Of a DNA stretch of 64,000 nt, positions 51,001 to 57,000 are shown piece by piece. The stretch's first letter is position 1, and every line of letters begins with the position of its first letter. The DNA is from an uncultured Methanosarcinales archaeon (GTDB lineage: Archaea > Nanobdellota > Nanobdellia > Woesearchaeales > CAZOXR01), in NCBI GenBank assembly GCA_964566535.1, contig CAZMIO010000001.1, positions 62,001 to 126,000 of the forward strand, given 5' to 3'. The position numbers were made by a program.

Positions 51001-54000
51001 TAGAAATAGATTATTTATATAAATGTTATTATAATCCGTTATCGCCTACTGGAAGTCCTCCCATGTGATAATCATCATCAATCCTTTGTTCTAGTAGTCC
51101 TAGACCGTTTCTTAATTTCTCAGTATCTATAGGTCTTGTAATGCTTCCAACATTGAACTCATCTGCTCTATCGATTAAGTCCGAAACTTCAACGGTTTTA
51201 GCTATTGCTTCCCTAACAGAAGTGTAATCTCCATGGTAAATTCCTCTAAGTCCAGCCCTAATTCCCCTTTCTAATCTGTGGCTCTGAACGTAATCAAGAA
51301 GATATTGAATTGGTTTAACTGCCATATAAATCTAGAAGTTACTGGTGTATTTAAATGTTGTTGAAATTAAACGCTCCCGCTGGGATTCGAAGCCAGGCAA
51401 CTAAGAAGTTAGTTGACACCTTNNNNNNNNNNNNNNNNNNNNNNNNNNNNNNNNNNNNNNNNNNNNNNNNNNNNNNNNNNNNNNNNNNNNNNNNNNNNNN
51501 NNNNNNNNNNNNNNNNNNNNNNTGTAGGCCTCGTTTGCTCAGCCCACTGAGAAATAACGCTCCCGCTGGGATTCGAAGCCAGGCAACTAAGAAGTTAGTT
51601 GACACCTTTGTAGGCCTCGTTTGCTCAGCCCACTGAGAAATAACGCTCCCGCTGGGATTCGAACCCAGGTGATTGCCTTGAGAAGGCAAGATGATTGACC
51701 GGATTGTGCGATTTTTAACAATCTCTACACTACGGGAGCATAAACGCCGCGGCCCAGATTTGAACTGGGAAATCCTTAACGGAAACAGCCTGTTTGGTTA
51801 CAAATTCCAGGGCTGCGCAGTACCAGGTTGTGCCACCGCGGCAATAAGTTAAGAAATTCTTTATTTGTTTATAAAAGTTTTTGTTAGAATCAATGAAAAA
51901 ATGAATAAAAAAGCCAATGAAGAATTAAATTAATAAATAAAAAATTATTGGAAAAAAAGTTGAATTGTAATGAAAATTAGAAATTATAGAACTACTCAAT
52001 CATCTCAATCTCAATATTTAATCCTTCTGGGATAGGAACTCTCATTACTAAGTGTAGAGCACGTTCATCTACACCTAGATCAACTAATCTTTTATGAATT
52101 CTCATCTCGTATCTTTCCCAAGAAGCCTTTCCATCTCCGCAAGGAGACTTTCTAGTAGTTAGTTTTAATTTTTTAGTAGGAAGAGGAATTGGTCCACGTA
52201 TGTCTACCCCGGTTTTTTCAGCGATATCTTTAATGTATTCACAAACTTCGTTTAGTTTGTTTATGTCGATGCTTGCTAATTTTATTCTTGCTTTTTGCAT
52301 TTTGGTTCACTTGAATACATTTAAGGCTTGCTTCATGATGAACATTAGTTCGCCATGAACGGGTAGATCCCTTAAAAAAATGAAAAAAAATTATTTTTTT
52401 GTTAGGTCAATACACATTCCAGCTGCAACTGTTGAGCCAGAGTCCCTTATAGCGAATCTTGCTAGTTGGGGAATTTCTTTCTGCTTTTCAATTACAAGAG
52501 GCTGCACAGGCTTTAATCTTACAATAGCTGCGTCTCCATTTTTAATGAAGTCAGGGTTTTCCTGAACAACTTCACCGGTTGCTGGATTAAGCTTTTTTTC
52601 GATAGCCATAACCTGACATGCAACTTGTGCTGTATGTATATGGAATACAGGTGTATATCCTACTGTAACAACAGTTGGATGGTTTAATACAACAATTTGA
52701 GCTGTAAATTCAGTCGCAATTGTTGGTGGATTATCTGTATGTCCTAGTACATCTCCTCTTACAATGTCTTTCTTTTCTATTCCTCGAACGTTAAATCCAA
52801 TGTTATCTCCAGGTTCAGCTTGCTGCTGCATCTCGTGATGCATCTCAATTGTCTTTACTTCACCAGGAACTCCCTTACCTTCTCTTCCAGGTACAACGAT
52901 AACTTTATCGCCTAACTTCATAACTCCTGTTTCAACTCTTCCAACAGGAACTACTCCGATACCTGTGATGCTATAAACATCCTGAATAGGTAGTCTTAAT
53001 GGTAAATCGGTTGGCTTCTCAGGTTCTTTTACTTTGTTAATTGCGTCAAGTAATGTGTCTCCTGAATACCATGCCATCTTCTCTGATTTCTCAGCGATGT
53101 TATCTCCTGGTAATGAAGCAATTGGTATGAATGGAACTTCATCAGGTTTGTAACCAACACTTTTTAACAGGTTACCAACATCTTCTTTGATTTTGTTGAA
53201 ATTTGCTTCATCGTAGTCCTTCATATCCATTTTGTTAATTGCTACAATAAGCTGGTTAACTCCTAATGTTCTTGCTAAGAAAACGTGCTCTTTTGTTTGA
53301 GCCATAACTCCGTCATTAGCTGCAACAACAAGTACACCAGCATCAGCCTGTGCTGCACCAGTAATCATGTTCTTAATGAAGTCCTTGTGTCCAGGTGCAT
53401 CAATTATTGTAAAATAAGATGTATCTGTCTCAAACTTTTTGTGAGCCAAGTCAATGGTAACTCCTCTTTCTCTTTCTTCTTTTAAGTTATCCATTACGAA
53501 TGCGAATTCGAATCCACCTTTTCCTAATTCTTCAGCTTTTTCTTTAAGCTTTCTCATAGCAGCTTCATCAATATTTTTTGTATCGAATAGTAATCTACCT
53601 ACTGTAGTTGACTTACCGTGATCAACGTGCCCGATAAATACAATGTTTATGTGTGGTTTTGTTTTAGCCATATTAATCCCTCCGTACTATATTTCTATGA
53701 ATAATAGTATTCTAAGAGTTTTGTATAGATTTATAAATGTTATGGTTTTTTATTCCCGAATATCCTATGTGGGTTTTGACCTAATCATTACTTCATAATG
53801 GGAATAAGAGTTTAAATATGATGGTGTTTGTTAAGGGGTTATGACTGAGTTGAAAAGGGTTTTGGGGTTTCCTGCTATCTTGTTGATTACTATTAATTCT
53901 ATAATGGGTACTGGGATTTATTTCTTGCCTGCAGCTGGTGCTAAGTACGCTGGACCTGCCTCAATATTATCTTGGATTATAATGTCAGTCATTGCTATCT

Positions 54001-57000
54001 ATATAGGGATGTGTTTTGCTGAGTTAGTATCTATGTTTCCTAAGGCAGGTGGAGTTTATGAGTATTGTAAGCAAACTTATGGGAGATTTATTTCTTTTTT
54101 GATCGGATGGTTACTGTTGATTGCAGGAAATATTACAATTTCTATGTTGATTGTAGGGGCGATACAGTATCTGTTACCTTATCCGCTGCCGCTTGTTAAG
54201 ACTGCGCTATCTATATTTTTCATATTGGTGTTTAATTTTATCGCTTACAAGGGTATGAAGACTTCTGCGTTTATGTTAGTGTCTTTTGCTGTTATGACTA
54301 TTGGTATTTTGTTGGCATTAATTATTCCTGGGTTGTTTAGTTTAGAGCCTAGTAATTTTCAACCGTTTTTTGTTTTTGGAGGTTCAAGTATCTTTATCAC
54401 GCTGTTTTTTATCGCTGAGACTTTCTTTGGATGGGAGTCTGCCGCATTCTTAGCTGAAGAAACGAAGAATCCTGAGAAAGTAATGCCCAAAGCTATGATT
54501 TATGGTACAATTGTAATTGCAATAATGGCCATTACTTTGAGTGTTGTTGCTTTGGGAAACATTAAATGGAAAATTTTTGGTGGGTCTGGAGCACCTTTAG
54601 CTGACTTGGGAGGAGCTATCTTTGGAGCTACTGGGCAGGACTTATTTAGTTTAGGAATATATATTGCAATCATTAGTGCAGTTGCATGCTGGGTTGTTAG
54701 TTCTCCGAGATTAATATTGGCTTTAGCTAGAGATAAATTATTTTTGAGTCAGTTTGCAAAGATTCACCCCAAGTATAATACCCCTCATAGAGCTATATTT
54801 TTACAGACCATCATTACAATAACATTGATATTAATAGTGGGGGGAGCTTATAGGATGTTATTGTTATTGTTAATTCCGCTTGCAATTGTAATATATTCGT
54901 TTACACTGGTAAGTTTGGTTTCGTTGAGGTACAAAAAACCTCATCTTAAGAGGCATTTTAAGGTTCCATTTGGGAAGGTAGGGCCTATATTAGTCATATT
55001 GTTTAATATTTTTTTAATTGTGATGTGGGCAACACACGAAGAAGGTGCAATTGATTCACTTAAGTTTGGCGGTTCACTTGTTTTGGTTGGGATTCCTATT
55101 TATTTCTTGCTTGAGATGTACTATAATCCTAAGAGTATCAGGATAGTTCAGGATACTTTGGCCTATCTTACTTTGATTACTGAAGGTATTGGGCTGCCTG
55201 TTAAGAGGAGAAAAGAAATAATAGCATTGCTTGGAAAAATTAAAGGAAAAACTGTACTGGAATATGGGTGTAGTGTTGGGACATTAACTATGCACCTTGC
55301 TAAAGAGGTAGGTAAAGGCGGTAGGGTTTATGCAACTGATAGTTCTAAAAGAGAGGTAGATATAGCTCAAAAAAGATTAGATAAAAAAGGACATAAACAT
55401 GTTAAAGTGTTGCATGATGAAGACCATCATAAAAGGATACATCCTCACGTTCCTAAGCTAGATACTGCTGTTTCTGTTGGAATGATGGGTTATGTTCAGG
55501 ATATGGGTGCTGTTTTGAGTGATGTTAACAAAAGGTTGAAGAAAGGTGCTAAGATATGTTTTGTTGATTATGATAAGTTCTTTGATATCATTCCTAATAA
55601 AGAATGGTTGGGCGATGATAAGAAGATAAAGCGAATGTTTCACAATGCTGGGTTTACGGTTGGAGTTCTTCGTAAGCAAGGTTTTGCATGGAAGTATGTT
55701 ATTATTTATGGTGTTAAGTTTAAGAATGTTTAGTCTGTGACTGCGTTATCAATAGAACTATCGTCTCCAAGCCTTCTCCTTACATTATAACCTGCTAGAA
55801 CACAGTAAAGCGCTGTTCCCCCAACAACCAATGAAAATCCTAAAACTGGATGATCATGTAGAACTTCTCCAGTCCTACGATAAAGTTCCATTGCTTCTTG
55901 AGGTGCTCTTTCAATGCATCCTAGAATTGGGCTTATAACAGCTTCAACAGCGTGTTCATAACGTGGTACTATCATAAGAGGCGGGAGAGTATATCTAATA
56001 TTTAAATCTTTATGGGAGAAATAAGGTTCTTTTTACTTTATTGTCTAGAATGTCTTGGACCTTTTGTTTGCCATTTGCAACTATTGTTAGGATCCCCTTC
56101 TTTCCCACCTTTTTTGCTGTCATAATTTTTGATAGCATGCCGCCGGTTCCCATTATTGAGCCTTCTTTTGAGGCCATGTCTTCTATCTCTTTTGTGAATT
56201 GCTCAACAACAGGGATTAGTTCGTAGCAAGTGTTTTTTCTTGGGTCTAGGGTGCATAAACCGTCAACGTCTGTGAGCATTACCAGTAGGTCGACATTTAG
56301 ATTTTCTGCAACTAATGCTGCTAGTTCATCATTATCGGTGAAAACGTTTTTTGATCTTAATAGTAATTCTTCTTTTGTGACAACATCATTTGTGTTTATG
56401 ATCGGGATGGTATGGTTCTTTAAGTAGGCATTAACTACTTCTTTGATATTTTTTACTTCCTCTGCTGTATCAAAGTTATAGTGAGTTAGCAGAACTTGTG
56501 CTGTTTGGATTCTATAAGGTTTGAATAGGTCTGTGTAGATTTTCATCAATCTTACTTGTCCTTTTCCAGAGAGTAGTTGTAGGCTTAGTGCGTTTTTAGG
56601 CCTTTCTGATATTTTCTCAACTTCCATGCCTGCTCCAACTGCGCCTGATGAGATTATGATTATTTCTTTTCCTTTGTTTTTTAGTCTTGCAATCTCTTCT
56701 GTCTTTTGTTTTATCCAGTTAAGATTGAGTTTATGGTTTTTGGTTATTGTGGATGTACCTATCTTGATTAGGATTCTATTAGCTTTGTTTATCTTTTCTT
56801 GGAATGTCATTTTATCCTCCTATGAAGGAATCTTTTTGCGCTTTCTCCGCTATAGTCTTCGACAACGTGGCCGTGACCGATTAATCTGAACTTGTAGATT
56901 GTTAATCCGCCTAGTCCTACTGGGCCTCTTGCGTGGACTTTGTTTGTTGAGATTCCGACTTCGGCTCCGAGGCCATATCTGAATCCATCGCTGAATCTTG

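What a model noticed while it worked through the whole genome (the two positions that open the first line are those of the whole stretch)
53841..55733. Amino-acid permease fused to a SAM methyltransferase, conserved across Woesearchaeales
g00139 (630 aa) joins a complete APC-family amino-acid/polyamine permease (residues 8-396) to a C-terminal class I SAM-dependent methyltransferase domain (457-590). I read it as a transporter that methylates its cargo on arrival (or a methyltransferase gated by transport), for instance to trap an imported amine or make a methylated osmolyte. New: the full-length fusion is kept in most sampled relatives, yet I know of no studied permease-methyltransferase fusion.
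Evidence so far: Pfam AA_permease_2 8-395 (E 4e-53) and Methyltransf_23/31/25/11/12, Ubie_methyltran 457-590 (E 1e-8 to 1e-12). As query: 15 of 25 other Woesearchaeales match at E<=1e-15; in 14 the best match spans residues 1-7 to 626-630 in one open frame of 638-862 aa at 40-61% identity. Methyltransferase part alone: nearest solved chains are generic SAM methyltransferases (3dh0 E 2e-8; phosphoethanolamine N-methyltransferases E 1e-6 to 3e-5).
(Added by a program. Inside this text positions count along the whole contig: contig position 62,001 is position 1 of the stretch shown here. "Call 12" and the like, gene names such as g00115 and contig names such as C1 are that model's own, and its searches are not shown. 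The text may have been shortened before it was handed on; [...] marks where a part breaks off. The agent that wrote the report below was given it as the finding of a first reader that could run no searches.)

Follow-up and report, generated by a model that had tools for sequence, protein, structure and literature searches.

The report
Archaeal amino-acid permease fused to methyltransferase
One intact gene of a tiny symbiotic-type (Woesearchaeales) archaeon joins a complete amino-acid transporter to a SAM-binding methyltransferase domain; the fusion is common in these archaea and appears unstudied, and the domain looks more like a built-in SAM-responsive control module than an enzyme that methylates the cargo.

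Summary
Window 53841-55733 (+) is one open 630-aa gene. It joins a 12-helix APC/LAT-type amino-acid permease (1-428), a conserved helical linker (429-465) and a small class I SAM methyltransferase (MT) domain (466-630).

The fusion is full length in 104 of 201 sampled genomes of the order and also occurs in Aenigmatarchaeota-labelled clusters. The MT's nearest relatives in 1.8 billion proteins are almost all fused in the same way.

The cargo-methylation idea is not supported. MT module and cargo site vary independently:
- Tandem paralogues keep the MT at 73-88% identity while their permeases share 31-38% and copy 2 has changed the substrate-site motifs.
- A 750-790-aa paralogue family keeps the permease motifs but has a remodelled SAM site.

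My best reading (about 0.45) is a SAM/SAH-binding regulatory module that tunes amino-acid, probably methionine-family, uptake. The genome has MetK and SAH hydrolase, but no methionine synthase was found. Enzymatic readings remain open, and one genome carries this MT as a stand-alone gene.

I found no paper on the fusion. This scan had already flagged it on other DNA (e1-1122885, e1-977937, e1-1421866, e1-4922008). Nothing here is biochemically shown.

The parts
53811..53818 (+). TATA-like box TTTAAATA, 23 nt upstream of the ATG; probably the gene's own promoter, giving a short or absent leader
   Evidence: Read directly. No Rfam element at or above its gathering score in 53300-56200.
53841..55733 (+). 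Whole gene, 630 codons plus stop: permease-linker-methyltransferase fusion (P0001)
   Evidence: AF2 model: mean pLDDT 93.3, pTM 0.90.
53841..55124 (+). APC/LAT-type amino-acid permease domain, residues 1-428, 12 transmembrane helices. TM1 motif SIMGTGIYF (20-28); TM6 motif ETFFGWES (193-200).
   Evidence: Pfam. NCBIfam TIGR00909 at 218 bits, below its cut-off. PDB phmmer: BasC 6f2g E 1.2e-38, GkApcT 5oqt E 1.4e-33. VIA Z 43-48, rmsd 2.4-3.3 A over 415-437 residues to SLC7A10, LAT1, AdiC, BasC, ApcT. 12 hydrophobic segments by my Kyte-Doolittle scan.
55125..55235 (+). Conserved helical linker, residues 429-465 (three short helices 430-439, 441-451, 454-464). It continues from TM12 and corresponds to the N-terminal lid helices of small class I methyltransferases.
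   Evidence: DSSP and pLDDT 90-95; consensus YYxPxxxxxxxDxxAxxxxxxExxxxPxxxRxxIxxxLG. In tandem paralogues the high-identity block starts here, at about residue 425-431.
55236..55730 (+). Class I (Rossmann-fold) SAM-dependent methyltransferase domain, residues 466-630, minimal size
   Evidence: Pfam. AF2 of this domain: pLDDT 93.6. VIA Z 21.4 to YcgJ 1xxl (rmsd 2.4, 170 aligned) and Z 20.8 to 3dh0 (rmsd 2.7, 177 aligned). Foldseek 3dh0 E 8.6e-14.
55260..55280 (+). Motif I of the SAM site, E474-Y-G476-C-S478-V-G480 (GxSxG in place of GxGxG)
   Evidence: In 202 aligned homologues: E/D474 196, G476 198, G480 197; position 478 is S 115, G 40, N 31.
55338..55340 (+). D500, the acidic residue at the end of strand beta2. 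Its role as the ribose-hydroxyl ligand of class I methyltransferases is recalled, not tested.
   Evidence: D or E in 171 of 202; N 17, S 11.
55578..55610 (+). Conserved, lower-confidence loop FFDIIPNKEWL (580-590) after strand beta5; candidate contact with the cytoplasmic face of the permease
   Evidence: F581 175, P585 183, N586 151, W589 173 of 202. pLDDT block 78. In VIA superpositions on LAT-type chains the aligned model range runs on to residues 583-592, at rmsd 2.4-2.6 in the best rows. For chains without a tail after TM12 (AdiC, BasC, GkApcT, ApcT) it ends at 429-442.

Best explanation
The gene encodes a working APC/LAT-type amino-acid carrier whose C-terminal methyltransferase-fold domain sits in the cytoplasm and acts mainly as a SAM (or SAH)-binding control module. 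Proposed mechanism: ligand occupancy of the Rossmann pocket orders the lid helices that run straight on from TM12, and the conserved 580-590 loop that lies against the cytoplasmic face of the carrier. This biases the inward gate, so that uptake of amino acids, most plausibly methionine and its relatives, follows the state of the methyl cycle (feedback from the inside, i.e. trans-inhibition or activation). Shown here: the gene is intact; both domains are complete; the SAM-site hallmarks are conserved; the module is conserved independently of the carrier's substrate site; G000 has SAM synthetase and SAH hydrolase, and no methionine synthase was found. Inferred, not shown: SAM binding itself, the direction of the effect, the cargo, and the absence of catalysis.
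For: 1. Same MT module on very different carriers. In tandem paralogues of G019 and G065 the permeases are 31% and 38% identical, and copy 2 has changed the TM1 GTG and TM6 FGWE motifs. Their MT parts are 88% and 73% identical. The switch is sharp at about residue 425-431. Codons encoding identical residues differ synonymously in 54 of 159 and 80 of 134 cases, so this is not a recent gene conversion.
2. Same carrier motifs with a remodelled SAM site. In 13 of 13 paralogues of 668-792 aa, TM1 and TM6 read as in the canonical form. In their MT-like domains the first Gly of motif I is D or N (13/13), the H525-D526 loop is deleted (13/13), W589, W617 and Y619 are replaced (13/13), G604 is replaced (12/13) and D500 is lost (5/13). 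The domain is nevertheless kept.
3. The MT part is as conserved as the carrier: mean identity to P0001 is 0.53 against 0.52 over 194 homologues, and 0.35 against 0.23 in the 19 most distant. The SAM-site columns are nearly invariant.
4. pTM 0.90 for the two-domain model implies a confidently fixed arrangement. The 580-590 loop overlays the tail that follows TM12 in LAT structures.
5. Physiology of G000 (91% complete). This is the only AA_permease_2 gene. Bacterial-type MetK and SAH hydrolase are present; MetE-type and MetH/MmuM-type methionine synthases were not found. Methionine would then have to be imported, and SAM would report its supply.
6. In the order sample, 95 of 116 fusion-bearing genomes have MetK against 55 of 85 without the fusion (Fisher p 0.008, but related genomes are not independent).
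7. Precedents. APC-fold carriers with cytosolic ligand-binding C-terminal domains appear among the fold matches: KimA with c-di-AMP (8b70) and NKCC1. A class I methyltransferase fold works as a SAM sensor in SAMTOR (PMC10883374, passages read). Methionine uptake is trans-inhibited through an appended domain in MetNI (PMC6233128, passages read).
Against: 1. Every conserved SAM-site feature is equally expected of a true enzyme.
2. Conservation reaches beyond the cofactor site: S545 (195 of 202), at the end of strand beta4, plus F600, G604, F605, W617, Y619 and K626 in the beta6-beta7 hairpin. From recalled knowledge, these places line the substrate pocket in class I methyltransferases.
3. G113 carries this MT clade as a stand-alone 195-aa gene in mid-contig. 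There is no permease remnant within 6 kb, and only a distant AA_permease_2 gene on another contig. This suggests a function that does not need the carrier.
4. 21 of 116 fusion-bearing genomes lack a detectable bacterial-type MetK. Five near-complete ones also lack the archaeal type, yet their MT domains are canonical.
5. No ligand binding, allostery or transport was measured, and I could not inspect the model's coordinates or its predicted-error map.
6. The paralogue argument assumes that changed TM1/TM6 motifs mean a changed cargo.
Confidence: 0.45

Rival explanations
1. Cargo methylation. The carrier hands its substrate to the methyltransferase, which methylates it as it arrives. This would trap it or make a methylated product such as a betaine-type osmolyte or S-methylmethionine: a kind of group translocation by methyl transfer.
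For: The covalent fusion is ancient, and the two domains co-diverge (pairwise identity correlation 0.77 over 18,915 pairs; 0 of 500 permutations reach it). The SAM site is intact and the residues where a substrate pocket would lie are conserved. The lid helices continue from TM12, and the 580-590 loop lies at the carrier's cytoplasmic face. The nearest folds are small-molecule methyltransferases. Some neighbours fit an osmotic or ion theme: proBAC converges on the gene in the window; a P-type cation ATPase lies nearby in 5 of 21 loci, co-directional in 3 (overlapping the fusion gene in 2); a Na+/H+ exchanger with TrkA_N in 3 of 21. An APC permease paired with a methyltransferase is known as an operon, mmuPM (PMC3228920).
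Against: The MT module stays 73-88% identical on carriers that are 31-38% identical and whose copy 2 has changed the motifs that hold the alpha-amino and alpha-carboxyl groups. Carriers with unchanged motifs keep a domain whose SAM site is remodelled. This is the only AA_permease_2 gene in G000, so it probably supplies proteinogenic amino acids that must stay unmethylated. There is no family-level match to any amino-acid or amine methyltransferase. A methyltransferase aimed at the shared alpha-amino or alpha-carboxyl group would partly escape the first argument.
Confidence: 0.15
2. A true enzyme with a substrate that is not the cargo. The methyltransferase methylates something common to all paralogues at the membrane: a lipid head group, a quinone-like compound, a protein such as a translation factor, or the carrier itself. 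The permease provides location or coupling to nutrient supply.
For: The MT module is invariant across diverged carriers. A stand-alone copy exists in G113. The best, though sub-threshold, NCBIfam matches are methyltransferases of membrane-bound quinones (MenG/UbiE, 38 bits) and cyclopropane fatty acid synthases. The gene sits beside translation genes: EF-1alpha and S10 in the window; S7 in 8 of 21 and 9 of 30 loci; a Dph2-like diphthamide gene in 6 of 21 and 7 of 30.
Against: Every family match is far below its cut-off. A complete, conserved 12-helix carrier is a costly anchor. The neighbours are convergent or divergent, not co-transcribed, and can be inherited gene order. The paralogue family with a remodelled SAM site would have lost this activity while keeping the domain.
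Confidence: 0.2
3. Sulfonium-compound importer. The carrier takes up SAM or S-methylmethionine from a host, and the methyltransferase-fold domain receives, binds or uses it at the exit.
For: Amino-acid-permease-family carriers do transport SAM: yeast Sam3 and Candida Gap4 (PMC5177730, passages read). 51 of 201 genomes of the order lack a detectable bacterial-type MetK. Five near-complete fusion-bearing ones also lack the archaeal type and so need outside SAM.
Against: The fusion is commoner in genomes with MetK (95 of 150) than without it (21 of 51), the opposite of what a replacement for MetK predicts. G000 itself has MetK. No residue-level evidence for SAM as cargo.
Confidence: 0.08
4. A purely structural domain. 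The methyltransferase fold serves folding, oligomerisation or stability of the carrier, and any bound SAM is only a structural cofactor.
For: The domain persists where the SAM site is remodelled. C-terminal domains of KimA and the cation-chloride carriers among the fold matches form dimers (recalled, not tested).
Against: The cofactor-site residues are almost invariant in the canonical family (G476 198, G480 197, S545 195 of 202). This is more than a scaffold needs. A stand-alone copy exists in G113.
Confidence: 0.1

Closest known systems
BasC, GkApcT, AdiC, ApcT and the human LAT/SLC7 carriers (APC superfamily, LeuT fold)
   Same: The 12-helix carrier domain: PDB phmmer E 1e-38 to 1e-19; VIA Z 42-48 at rmsd 2.4-3.4 A; TM1 G-T-G and TM6 F-G-W-E motifs.
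   Different: None of these carries a methyltransferase domain. The protein falls below the cut-off of every curated NCBIfam transporter family (best TIGR00909, 218 against 556.8 bits). In the phmmer alignment a valine stands where BasC has K154. That this lysine matters for coupling is recalled, not tested.
APC-fold carriers with a cytosolic regulatory C-terminal domain: KimA (binds c-di-AMP) and the cation-chloride cotransporters NKCC/KCC
   Same: Same overall plan: a LeuT-fold carrier followed by a cytoplasmic alpha/beta domain. They appear among the fold matches of the full model (8b70, 8b71, 9c0e).
   Different: Their C-terminal domains are not methyltransferases. Superposition over both domains is poor (rmsd 11-13 A), so the arrangement differs. 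The ligand proposed here is SAM/SAH.
SAMTOR, the SAM sensor of the mTORC1 pathway
   Same: A class I methyltransferase fold used to sense SAM/SAH, with an N-terminal helical part that responds to the ligand (PMC10883374, passages read).
   Different: SAMTOR is a soluble eukaryotic protein that signals by protein-protein binding. No sequence or fold match to it appeared. Whether the archaeal domain lacks catalysis is unknown.
MetNI methionine ABC importer with its C2 trans-inhibition domain
   Same: An uptake system for a methionine-family nutrient, shut off from inside by a ligand-binding domain appended to the transporter (PMC6233128, passages read).
   Different: MetNI is an ABC transporter, its C2 domain has another fold, and the ligand is methionine itself.
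mmuPM operon of enterobacteria (S-methylmethionine permease plus homocysteine methyltransferase), and yeast Sam3/Mmp1
   Same: An amino-acid-permease-family carrier working together with methyl-donor chemistry (PMC3228920; PMC5177730).
   Different: These are separate genes. MmuM belongs to the MetH-type family PF02574, which is not a Rossmann methyltransferase and was not found in G000. There is no evidence that the archaeal carrier moves sulfonium compounds.
Small stand-alone class I methyltransferases of unknown substrate: Aquifex 3dh0 and B. subtilis YcgJ 1xxl
   Same: Closest in sequence and fold to the MT domain, and of the same minimal size (3dh0 E 2.4e-8; Z 20.8 and 21.4).
   Different: They are soluble, unfused and only 16-25% identical, and their substrates are unknown, so they give no functional lead.

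Membership tests
APC superfamily amino-acid permeases (Pfam AA_permease_2 / AA_permease) | Profile match above the curated cut-off over the whole carrier | tested here: met
   PF13520 177.5 bits (cut-off 27), residues 8-395; PF00324 125 bits (cut-off 24.6).
APC superfamily amino-acid permeases (Pfam AA_permease_2 / AA_permease) | 12-helix LeuT-type fold | tested here: met
   AF2 pLDDT 93.3; VIA Z 43-48 at rmsd 2.4-3.3 A over 415-437 residues to SLC7A10, LAT1, AdiC, BasC.
APC superfamily amino-acid permeases (Pfam AA_permease_2 / AA_permease) | Unwound TM1 G-x-G and TM6 aromatic-G-aromatic-E motifs that hold the alpha-carboxyl and alpha-amino groups (their role is recalled) | tested here: met
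   The protein has SIMGTGIYF and ETFFGWES. The same motifs occur in canonical relatives and in 13 of 13 paralogues of 668-792 aa. They are changed in copy 2 of the G019 and G065 tandem pairs.
Curated NCBIfam transporter families (TIGR00909 2A0306, BcaP, ethanolamine permease and others) | Score at or above the family's cut-off | tested here: not met
   Best: TIGR00909, 218 bits against 556.8; BcaP, 181 against 690. No substrate can be assigned by family.
Class I SAM-dependent methyltransferases | Profile match above cut-off, and a seven-stranded Rossmann-type fold | tested here: met
   Methyltransf_23 43.1 bits (cut-off 27), Methyltransf_12 42.9 (30), Methyltransf_31 41.9 (27). Z 21.4 to 1xxl and 20.8 to 3dh0.
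Class I SAM-dependent methyltransferases | Glycine-rich motif I and an acidic residue at the end of strand beta2 | tested here: met
   E-Y-G-C-S-V-G with G476 198 and G480 197 of 202; the middle Gly is Ser here (S 115, G 40, N 31). D/E500 171 of 202.
Class I SAM-dependent methyltransferases | Methyl transfer to a defined acceptor | not testable with these tools
   Needs an enzyme assay. No catalytic residue is universal in this class.
UbiE/MenG, CbiT, ArsM, BioC, Tam and other named methyltransferase families (NCBIfam) | Score at or above the family's cut-off | tested here: not met
   Best: demethylmenaquinone methyltransferase, 38.1 bits against 235. All 25 families shown (of 36 matched) are far below their cut-offs.
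SAMTOR-like methyltransferase-fold sensors | Binds SAM/SAH and signals by conformational change without catalysis | not testable with these tools
   Only the fold class is shared. The analogy concerns how it may work; membership is not claimed.
MmuM/MetH-type homocysteine methyltransferases (PF02574), as in mmuPM | S-methyl_trans domain | tested here: not met
   PF02574 is not among the protein's 12 Pfam matches at E<=0.01. It was not found anywhere in G000.

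The most novel reading that the evidence does not exclude
Transport by methyl-group translocation. The carrier delivers its substrate straight into the fused methyltransferase, which methylates it as it enters, so that uptake is driven or made irreversible by SAM. This would be a new mode of solute uptake, comparable in logic to the sugar phosphotransferase system. 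The evidence here weakens it (module and cargo site are decoupled) but does not exclude it, above all if the enzyme targets the alpha-amino or alpha-carboxyl group shared by all cargoes.
Probability: 0.12. Interest if true: 0.9.

Novelty: new variant of a known kind. Interest (0 to 1): 0.62.

Why it matters
DPANN archaea have tiny genomes and live on what partners supply, so their few transporters decide what they can live on. In G000 this is the only AA_permease_2 gene found, and it carries a SAM-binding domain that is conserved as strongly as the carrier itself across hundreds of species.

If the domain is a sensor, this would be, as far as my searches show, the first secondary transporter gated by SAM or SAH. 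It would also be a prokaryotic counterpart of the SAMTOR idea, linking nutrient import directly to methyl-cycle status without any signalling pathway. If it is an enzyme acting on the cargo, it would define a new transport mode.

Either way the family is large, compact (630 aa) and predicted with high confidence. That makes it a tractable target for proteoliposome assays and cryo-EM.

Tried and rejected
1. Complex prediction with the carrier (1-440), the MT part (441-630) and SAM returned no verdict (score 0.00, mark 0.32). It counts neither for nor against docking.
2. The search for related loci with the MT alignment A2 failed for lack of conserved stretches. The single-protein scan found only close relatives: 30 loci, all titled Woesearchaeota, Nanoarchaeota or Nanoarchaeia, or carrying generic labels ('uncultured Methanosarcinales archaeon', 'uncultured bacterium') that I take to be non-informative. 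It did not widen the known range.
3. The listing of cluster members for 10 distant fusions gave no organism names.
4. Apparent split genes. G057 (carrier and MT on two contigs) is an assembly break: both pieces end at contig ends. I suspect the same for G091, G307 and G457 but did not check them. Only G113 is a checked stand-alone MT.
5. Fold searches with the MT domain give only generic small-molecule methyltransferases, closely tied in score (rows 1-50 span Z 21.4 to 17.7). No substrate can be read from them.
6. The Rfam scan of 53300-56200 found nothing at or above a gathering score, so no riboswitch-type control.
7. Gene neighbourhood. The recurrent neighbours are translation genes (S7, S12, NusA, RNA polymerase A, EF-1alpha, S10) and a Dph2-like gene, always convergent or divergent. 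I read this as inherited gene order, not as an operon.
8. I considered that the high MT identity of tandem paralogues is recent gene conversion. I rejected this because 34% and 60% of the codons for identical residues differ synonymously.
9. Paper searches for the fusion found nothing relevant. The one paper holding all terms (PMC10266531, passages read) does not mention it.
10. Pfam failed because one protein was too long. I repeated it without that protein.

Full report
**Observation.** The window holds one uninterrupted ORF at 53841-55733 (+), 630 codons with an ATG start. The frame opens only two codons upstream, so the start is fixed. A TATA-like TTTAAATA lies 23 nt before it. Pfam finds a complete amino-acid permease (AA_permease_2, 8-395, E 5.8e-52) and a class I methyltransferase (six related families, 457-590, E 5e-11 to 2e-6), all above their cut-offs.

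**Anatomy.** AlphaFold2, run on an alignment of 56 diverse homologues, gives mean pLDDT 93.3 and pTM 0.90.
- Residues 1-428 form twelve transmembrane helices.
- Residues 430-464 form three short helices.
- Residues 466-630 form a seven-stranded Rossmann-type domain.

The carrier superposes on SLC7A10, LAT1, y+LAT1, AdiC, BasC, GkApcT and ApcT with Z 42-48 at rmsd 2.4-3.4 A. By sequence it is nearest to BasC and GkApcT. It reaches no curated NCBIfam family cut-off, so no substrate can be assigned by family. The termini of this fold are cytoplasmic in the solved relatives (established knowledge of the family), so the methyltransferase faces the cytoplasm, where SAM is.

The MT domain alone (pLDDT 93.6) is a minimal small-molecule-type methyltransferase. 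It is closest to two enzymes of unknown substrate, YcgJ (Z 21.4) and Aquifex 3dh0 (Z 20.8). Many natural-product, arsenite, quinone and phosphoethanolamine methyltransferases follow, nearly tied in score. All NCBIfam matches are far below their cut-offs.

**Distribution.** In 201 sampled genomes of the order, 130 match at E<=1e-10 and 116 have a best E below 1e-90. I counted 114 listed places that span residues <=11 to >=625 in one frame, in 104 genomes. These tallies include the unpublished genomes G132 and G112.

The search for homologous proteins returned 1,107 hits. The best 120 carry both domains, and those that bear a name are called plain 'amino acid permease' or 'amino acid transporter' (Woesearchaeota, Nanoarchaeota).

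I searched 1.84 billion representative proteins with the MT part alone. This gave 935 hits at E<=0.001, 128 at <=1e-10 and 63 at <=1e-30. Most of the best hits are proteins of 550-860 aa with the match at about 430-640, and this holds down to 25-30% identity. The shorter hits are mostly fragments. Pfam confirmed both domains in 12 of 14 long hits scanned. The other two are P0204, which shows only a weak MT match, and P0247, which shows none. The MT is therefore a clade of its own that lives almost only in this fusion.

A phylum-level sample gave 147 of 401 genomes. Six lie in other orders of the class, one of them with a 630-aa frame (includes the unpublished G355, G449, G112). The ESM Atlas lists clusters of the same architecture whose commonest labelled phylum is Woesearchaeota, Aenigmatarchaeota or Nanobdellota.

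The two domains co-diverge: pairwise identity correlates at 0.77 over 18,915 pairs, and 0 of 500 permutations reach that value. This fits one old fusion, although shared ancestry alone produces much of the correlation.

**Is the methyltransferase intact?** In 202 aligned homologues:

| Position | Count of 202 |
|---|---|
| E/D474 | 196 |
| G476 | 198 |
| G480 | 197 |
| D/E500 | 171 (N 17, S 11) |
| D/E526 | 177 |
| S545 | 195 |
| F600 | 197 |
| G604 | 199 |
| F605 | 191 |
| W617 | 174 |
| Y619 | 169 |
| K626 | 184 |

The loop FFxxIPNxxWL (580-590) is also conserved (F581 175, P585 183, W589 173). The MT part is as conserved as the carrier: mean identity to P0001 is 0.53 against 0.52 over 194 homologues, and 0.35 against 0.23 in the 19 most distant. 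The domain is under strong selection and very probably binds SAM. This does not tell an enzyme from a sensor.

**The decisive comparison: paralogues.**
- *Tandem pairs.* G019 and G065 each carry two copies side by side. The carrier domains are 31% and 38% identical, and copy 2 has changed the TM1 G-T-G and TM6 F-G-W-E motifs. The MT parts are 88% and 73% identical. Identity jumps sharply at about residue 425-431, at the start of the linker. Codons for identical residues differ synonymously in 54 of 159 and 80 of 134 cases. The similarity therefore reflects constraint, or an old domain exchange, and not a recent conversion.
- *A long paralogue family.* A widespread family of 668-792 aa (13 sequences from 13 genomes) keeps the canonical TM1 and TM6 motifs in 13 of 13. 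Its MT-like domain is remodelled. The first glycine of motif I is D or N (13/13), the H525-D526 loop is deleted (13/13), W589, W617 and Y619 are replaced (13/13), G604 is replaced (12/13) and D500 is lost (5/13). P585, N586, F600, G624 and K626 remain.

So the same MT module serves very different carriers, and the same carrier site tolerates a remodelled cofactor site. An enzyme tailored to its cargo should show neither pattern. A modular control or scaffold domain should show both.

**Geometry.** I could not read coordinates, but two indirect points exist. First, pTM 0.90 for a protein of 440 plus 190 residues implies that the relative placement of the domains is predicted with confidence. 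Second, for chains without a tail after TM12 (AdiC, BasC, GkApcT, ApcT) the aligned model range ends at 429-442. For the LAT-type chains it runs on to residues 583-592, at rmsd 2.4-2.6 A in the best rows. Part of the conserved 580-590 loop thus lies where the tail after TM12 lies on the cytoplasmic face of LAT carriers. This is a hint of an interface, not a proof.

**Physiological setting.** G000 is 91% complete.
- The fusion is the only AA_permease_2 gene.
- Among 22 large multi-helix proteins scanned I found one other amino-acid-type permease (Trp_Tyr_perm). The rest were ion exchangers, an ammonium transporter, a proton pyrophosphatase and others. ABC systems were not examined.
- The genome has a bacterial-type SAM synthetase and SAH hydrolase.
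- Archaeal-type MetK, MetE-type and MetH/MmuM-type families were not found.

If that holds, methionine must be imported, and the SAM level reports its supply.

Across the order sample, 95 of 116 fusion-bearing genomes have MetK against 55 of 85 others (Fisher p 0.008; related genomes are not independent; the tallies include the unpublished G132, G112, G182, G121). Five near-complete fusion-bearing genomes lack both MetK types.

**Neighbourhood.** In the window the gene diverges from EF-1alpha and S10 and converges on an 81-aa ORF and proB-proA-proC.
- In 20 diverse loci plus the window: S7 in 8 of 21, S12 in 5, RNA polymerase A in 5, a Dph2-like gene in 6, a P-type cation ATPase in 5 (co-directional in 3, overlapping the fusion gene in 2), and a Na+/H+ exchanger with TrkA_N in 3.
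- In 30 further close loci: S7 in 9, S12 in 8, Dph2-like in 7, NusA in 4.

These neighbours are convergent or divergent. I read them as inherited gene order next to the translation-gene cluster, with at most a weak hint of an ion or osmotic theme.

**Variants.**
- Forms of 827-858 aa add a C-terminal DUF3108 domain.
- G113 has the MT clade as a stand-alone 195-aa gene in mid-contig, with no carrier remnant within 6 kb. This is the best single argument that the domain can act by itself.
- The apparent split in G057 is an assembly break.

**Explanation.** I rate a SAM/SAH-binding regulatory module as most likely (0.45). Rivals: an enzyme with a substrate that is not the cargo (0.20), cargo methylation (0.15), a purely structural domain (0.10), and a sulfonium-compound importer (0.08). 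The regulatory reading has precedents:
- APC-fold carriers with cytosolic ligand-binding domains, such as KimA with c-di-AMP (8b70) and NKCC1, appear among the fold matches.
- SAMTOR uses a class I methyltransferase fold as a SAM sensor (PMC10883374, passages read).
- MetNI is trans-inhibited through an appended domain (PMC6233128, passages read).

Precedents for the rivals:
- The mmuPM operon pairs an amino-acid-type permease with a methyltransferase of another fold (PMC3228920, passages read).
- Sam3 and Gap4 show that this permease family can carry SAM (PMC5177730, passages read).

**Novelty.** Four full-text searches found no description of this fusion. Subscription-only literature and TCDB could not be searched. 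Earlier agents of this scan reported the same fusion on other DNA and left its function open (e1-1122885, e1-977937, e1-1421866). One described the paralogue with an N-terminal extension and a 'disabled' methyltransferase-like domain (e1-4922008). I confirmed the remodelled SAM site of such long paralogues, but I tested neither their N-terminal extension nor the voltage-sensor claim. What this report adds:
- the two-way decoupling of module and cargo site;
- the methyl-cycle context and the MetK comparison;
- the verified stand-alone copy;
- the DUF3108 variant;
- the position of the conserved loop.

I class the finding as a new variant of a known kind: an APC carrier with a cytosolic ligand-binding domain, here of the methyltransferase fold.

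Noticed in passing
window 51992-53671 (-), and loci L017, L021, L028, L053, L056, L073, L078: The fusion gene keeps a place beside the archaeal translation-gene cluster. In the window it diverges from EF-1alpha and S10. In other genomes it converges on S7-S12-NusA-L30e-RpoA, and a Dph2-like diphthamide gene often diverges from it upstream (S7 8 of 21 and 9 of 30 loci; Dph2-like 6 of 21 and 7 of 30).
   Followed up: partly
window 56010-58875 (-): A compact proB-proA-proC (proline synthesis) cluster with overlapping genes converges on the fusion gene. This is notable in a small genome that probably lacks most amino-acid pathways. It was not found next to the fusion in the other 50 loci.
   Followed up: partly
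window 55730-55975 (-): An 81-aa ORF with no Pfam match overlaps the stop codon of the fusion gene on the opposite strand. I did not examine whether it is a real gene.
   Followed up: no
L019:6001-8562 (G007); proteins P0121, P0132, P0140, P0169: Forms of 827-858 aa add a C-terminal DUF3108 domain of unknown function after the methyltransferase. For P0121: Pfam E 3.5e-7, and Atlas structural TM 0.85 to bacterial DUF3108 proteins. The other three were not tested for DUF3108.
   Followed up: partly
L032:5998-8325, L090:2319-4652, L092:2247-4577, L095-L102, L104, L105: A paralogue family of 668-792 aa keeps the canonical carrier motifs but has a remodelled methyltransferase-like domain. I tested neither the extension nor that claim.
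   Followed up: partly
L031:6019-6606 (G113): A stand-alone 195-aa gene of the fusion's methyltransferase clade, with the linker helices but no carrier, lying between translation-related genes. The only AA_permease_2 gene of that genome is distant and on another contig.
   Followed up: yes
L085 (G019), L086 (G065), L088-L092: Arrays of two or three tandem paralogues of the fusion are common in some families of the order. In G019 and G065, copy 2 has lost the canonical TM1 and TM6 substrate motifs, so it may carry something other than an alpha-amino acid or may act as a receptor.
   Followed up: partly
G000 whole genome (C8:7060-7833; C5:5925-7169): SAM synthetase is of the bacterial type, and no archaeal-type MetK was found. 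51 of 201 genomes of the order have no detectable bacterial-type MetK, and five near-complete ones lack both types. How those cells obtain SAM is open.
   Followed up: partly
L018:3303-5930, L022:7892-10498, L023:3417-6008, L013:4265-5983: In some genomes a P-type cation ATPase or a Na+/H+ exchanger with a TrkA_N domain lies directly upstream on the same strand. It abuts or overlaps the fusion gene except in L018, where a 70-nt gap separates them. This suggests co-transcription with ion-homeostasis genes in those lineages.
   Followed up: partly
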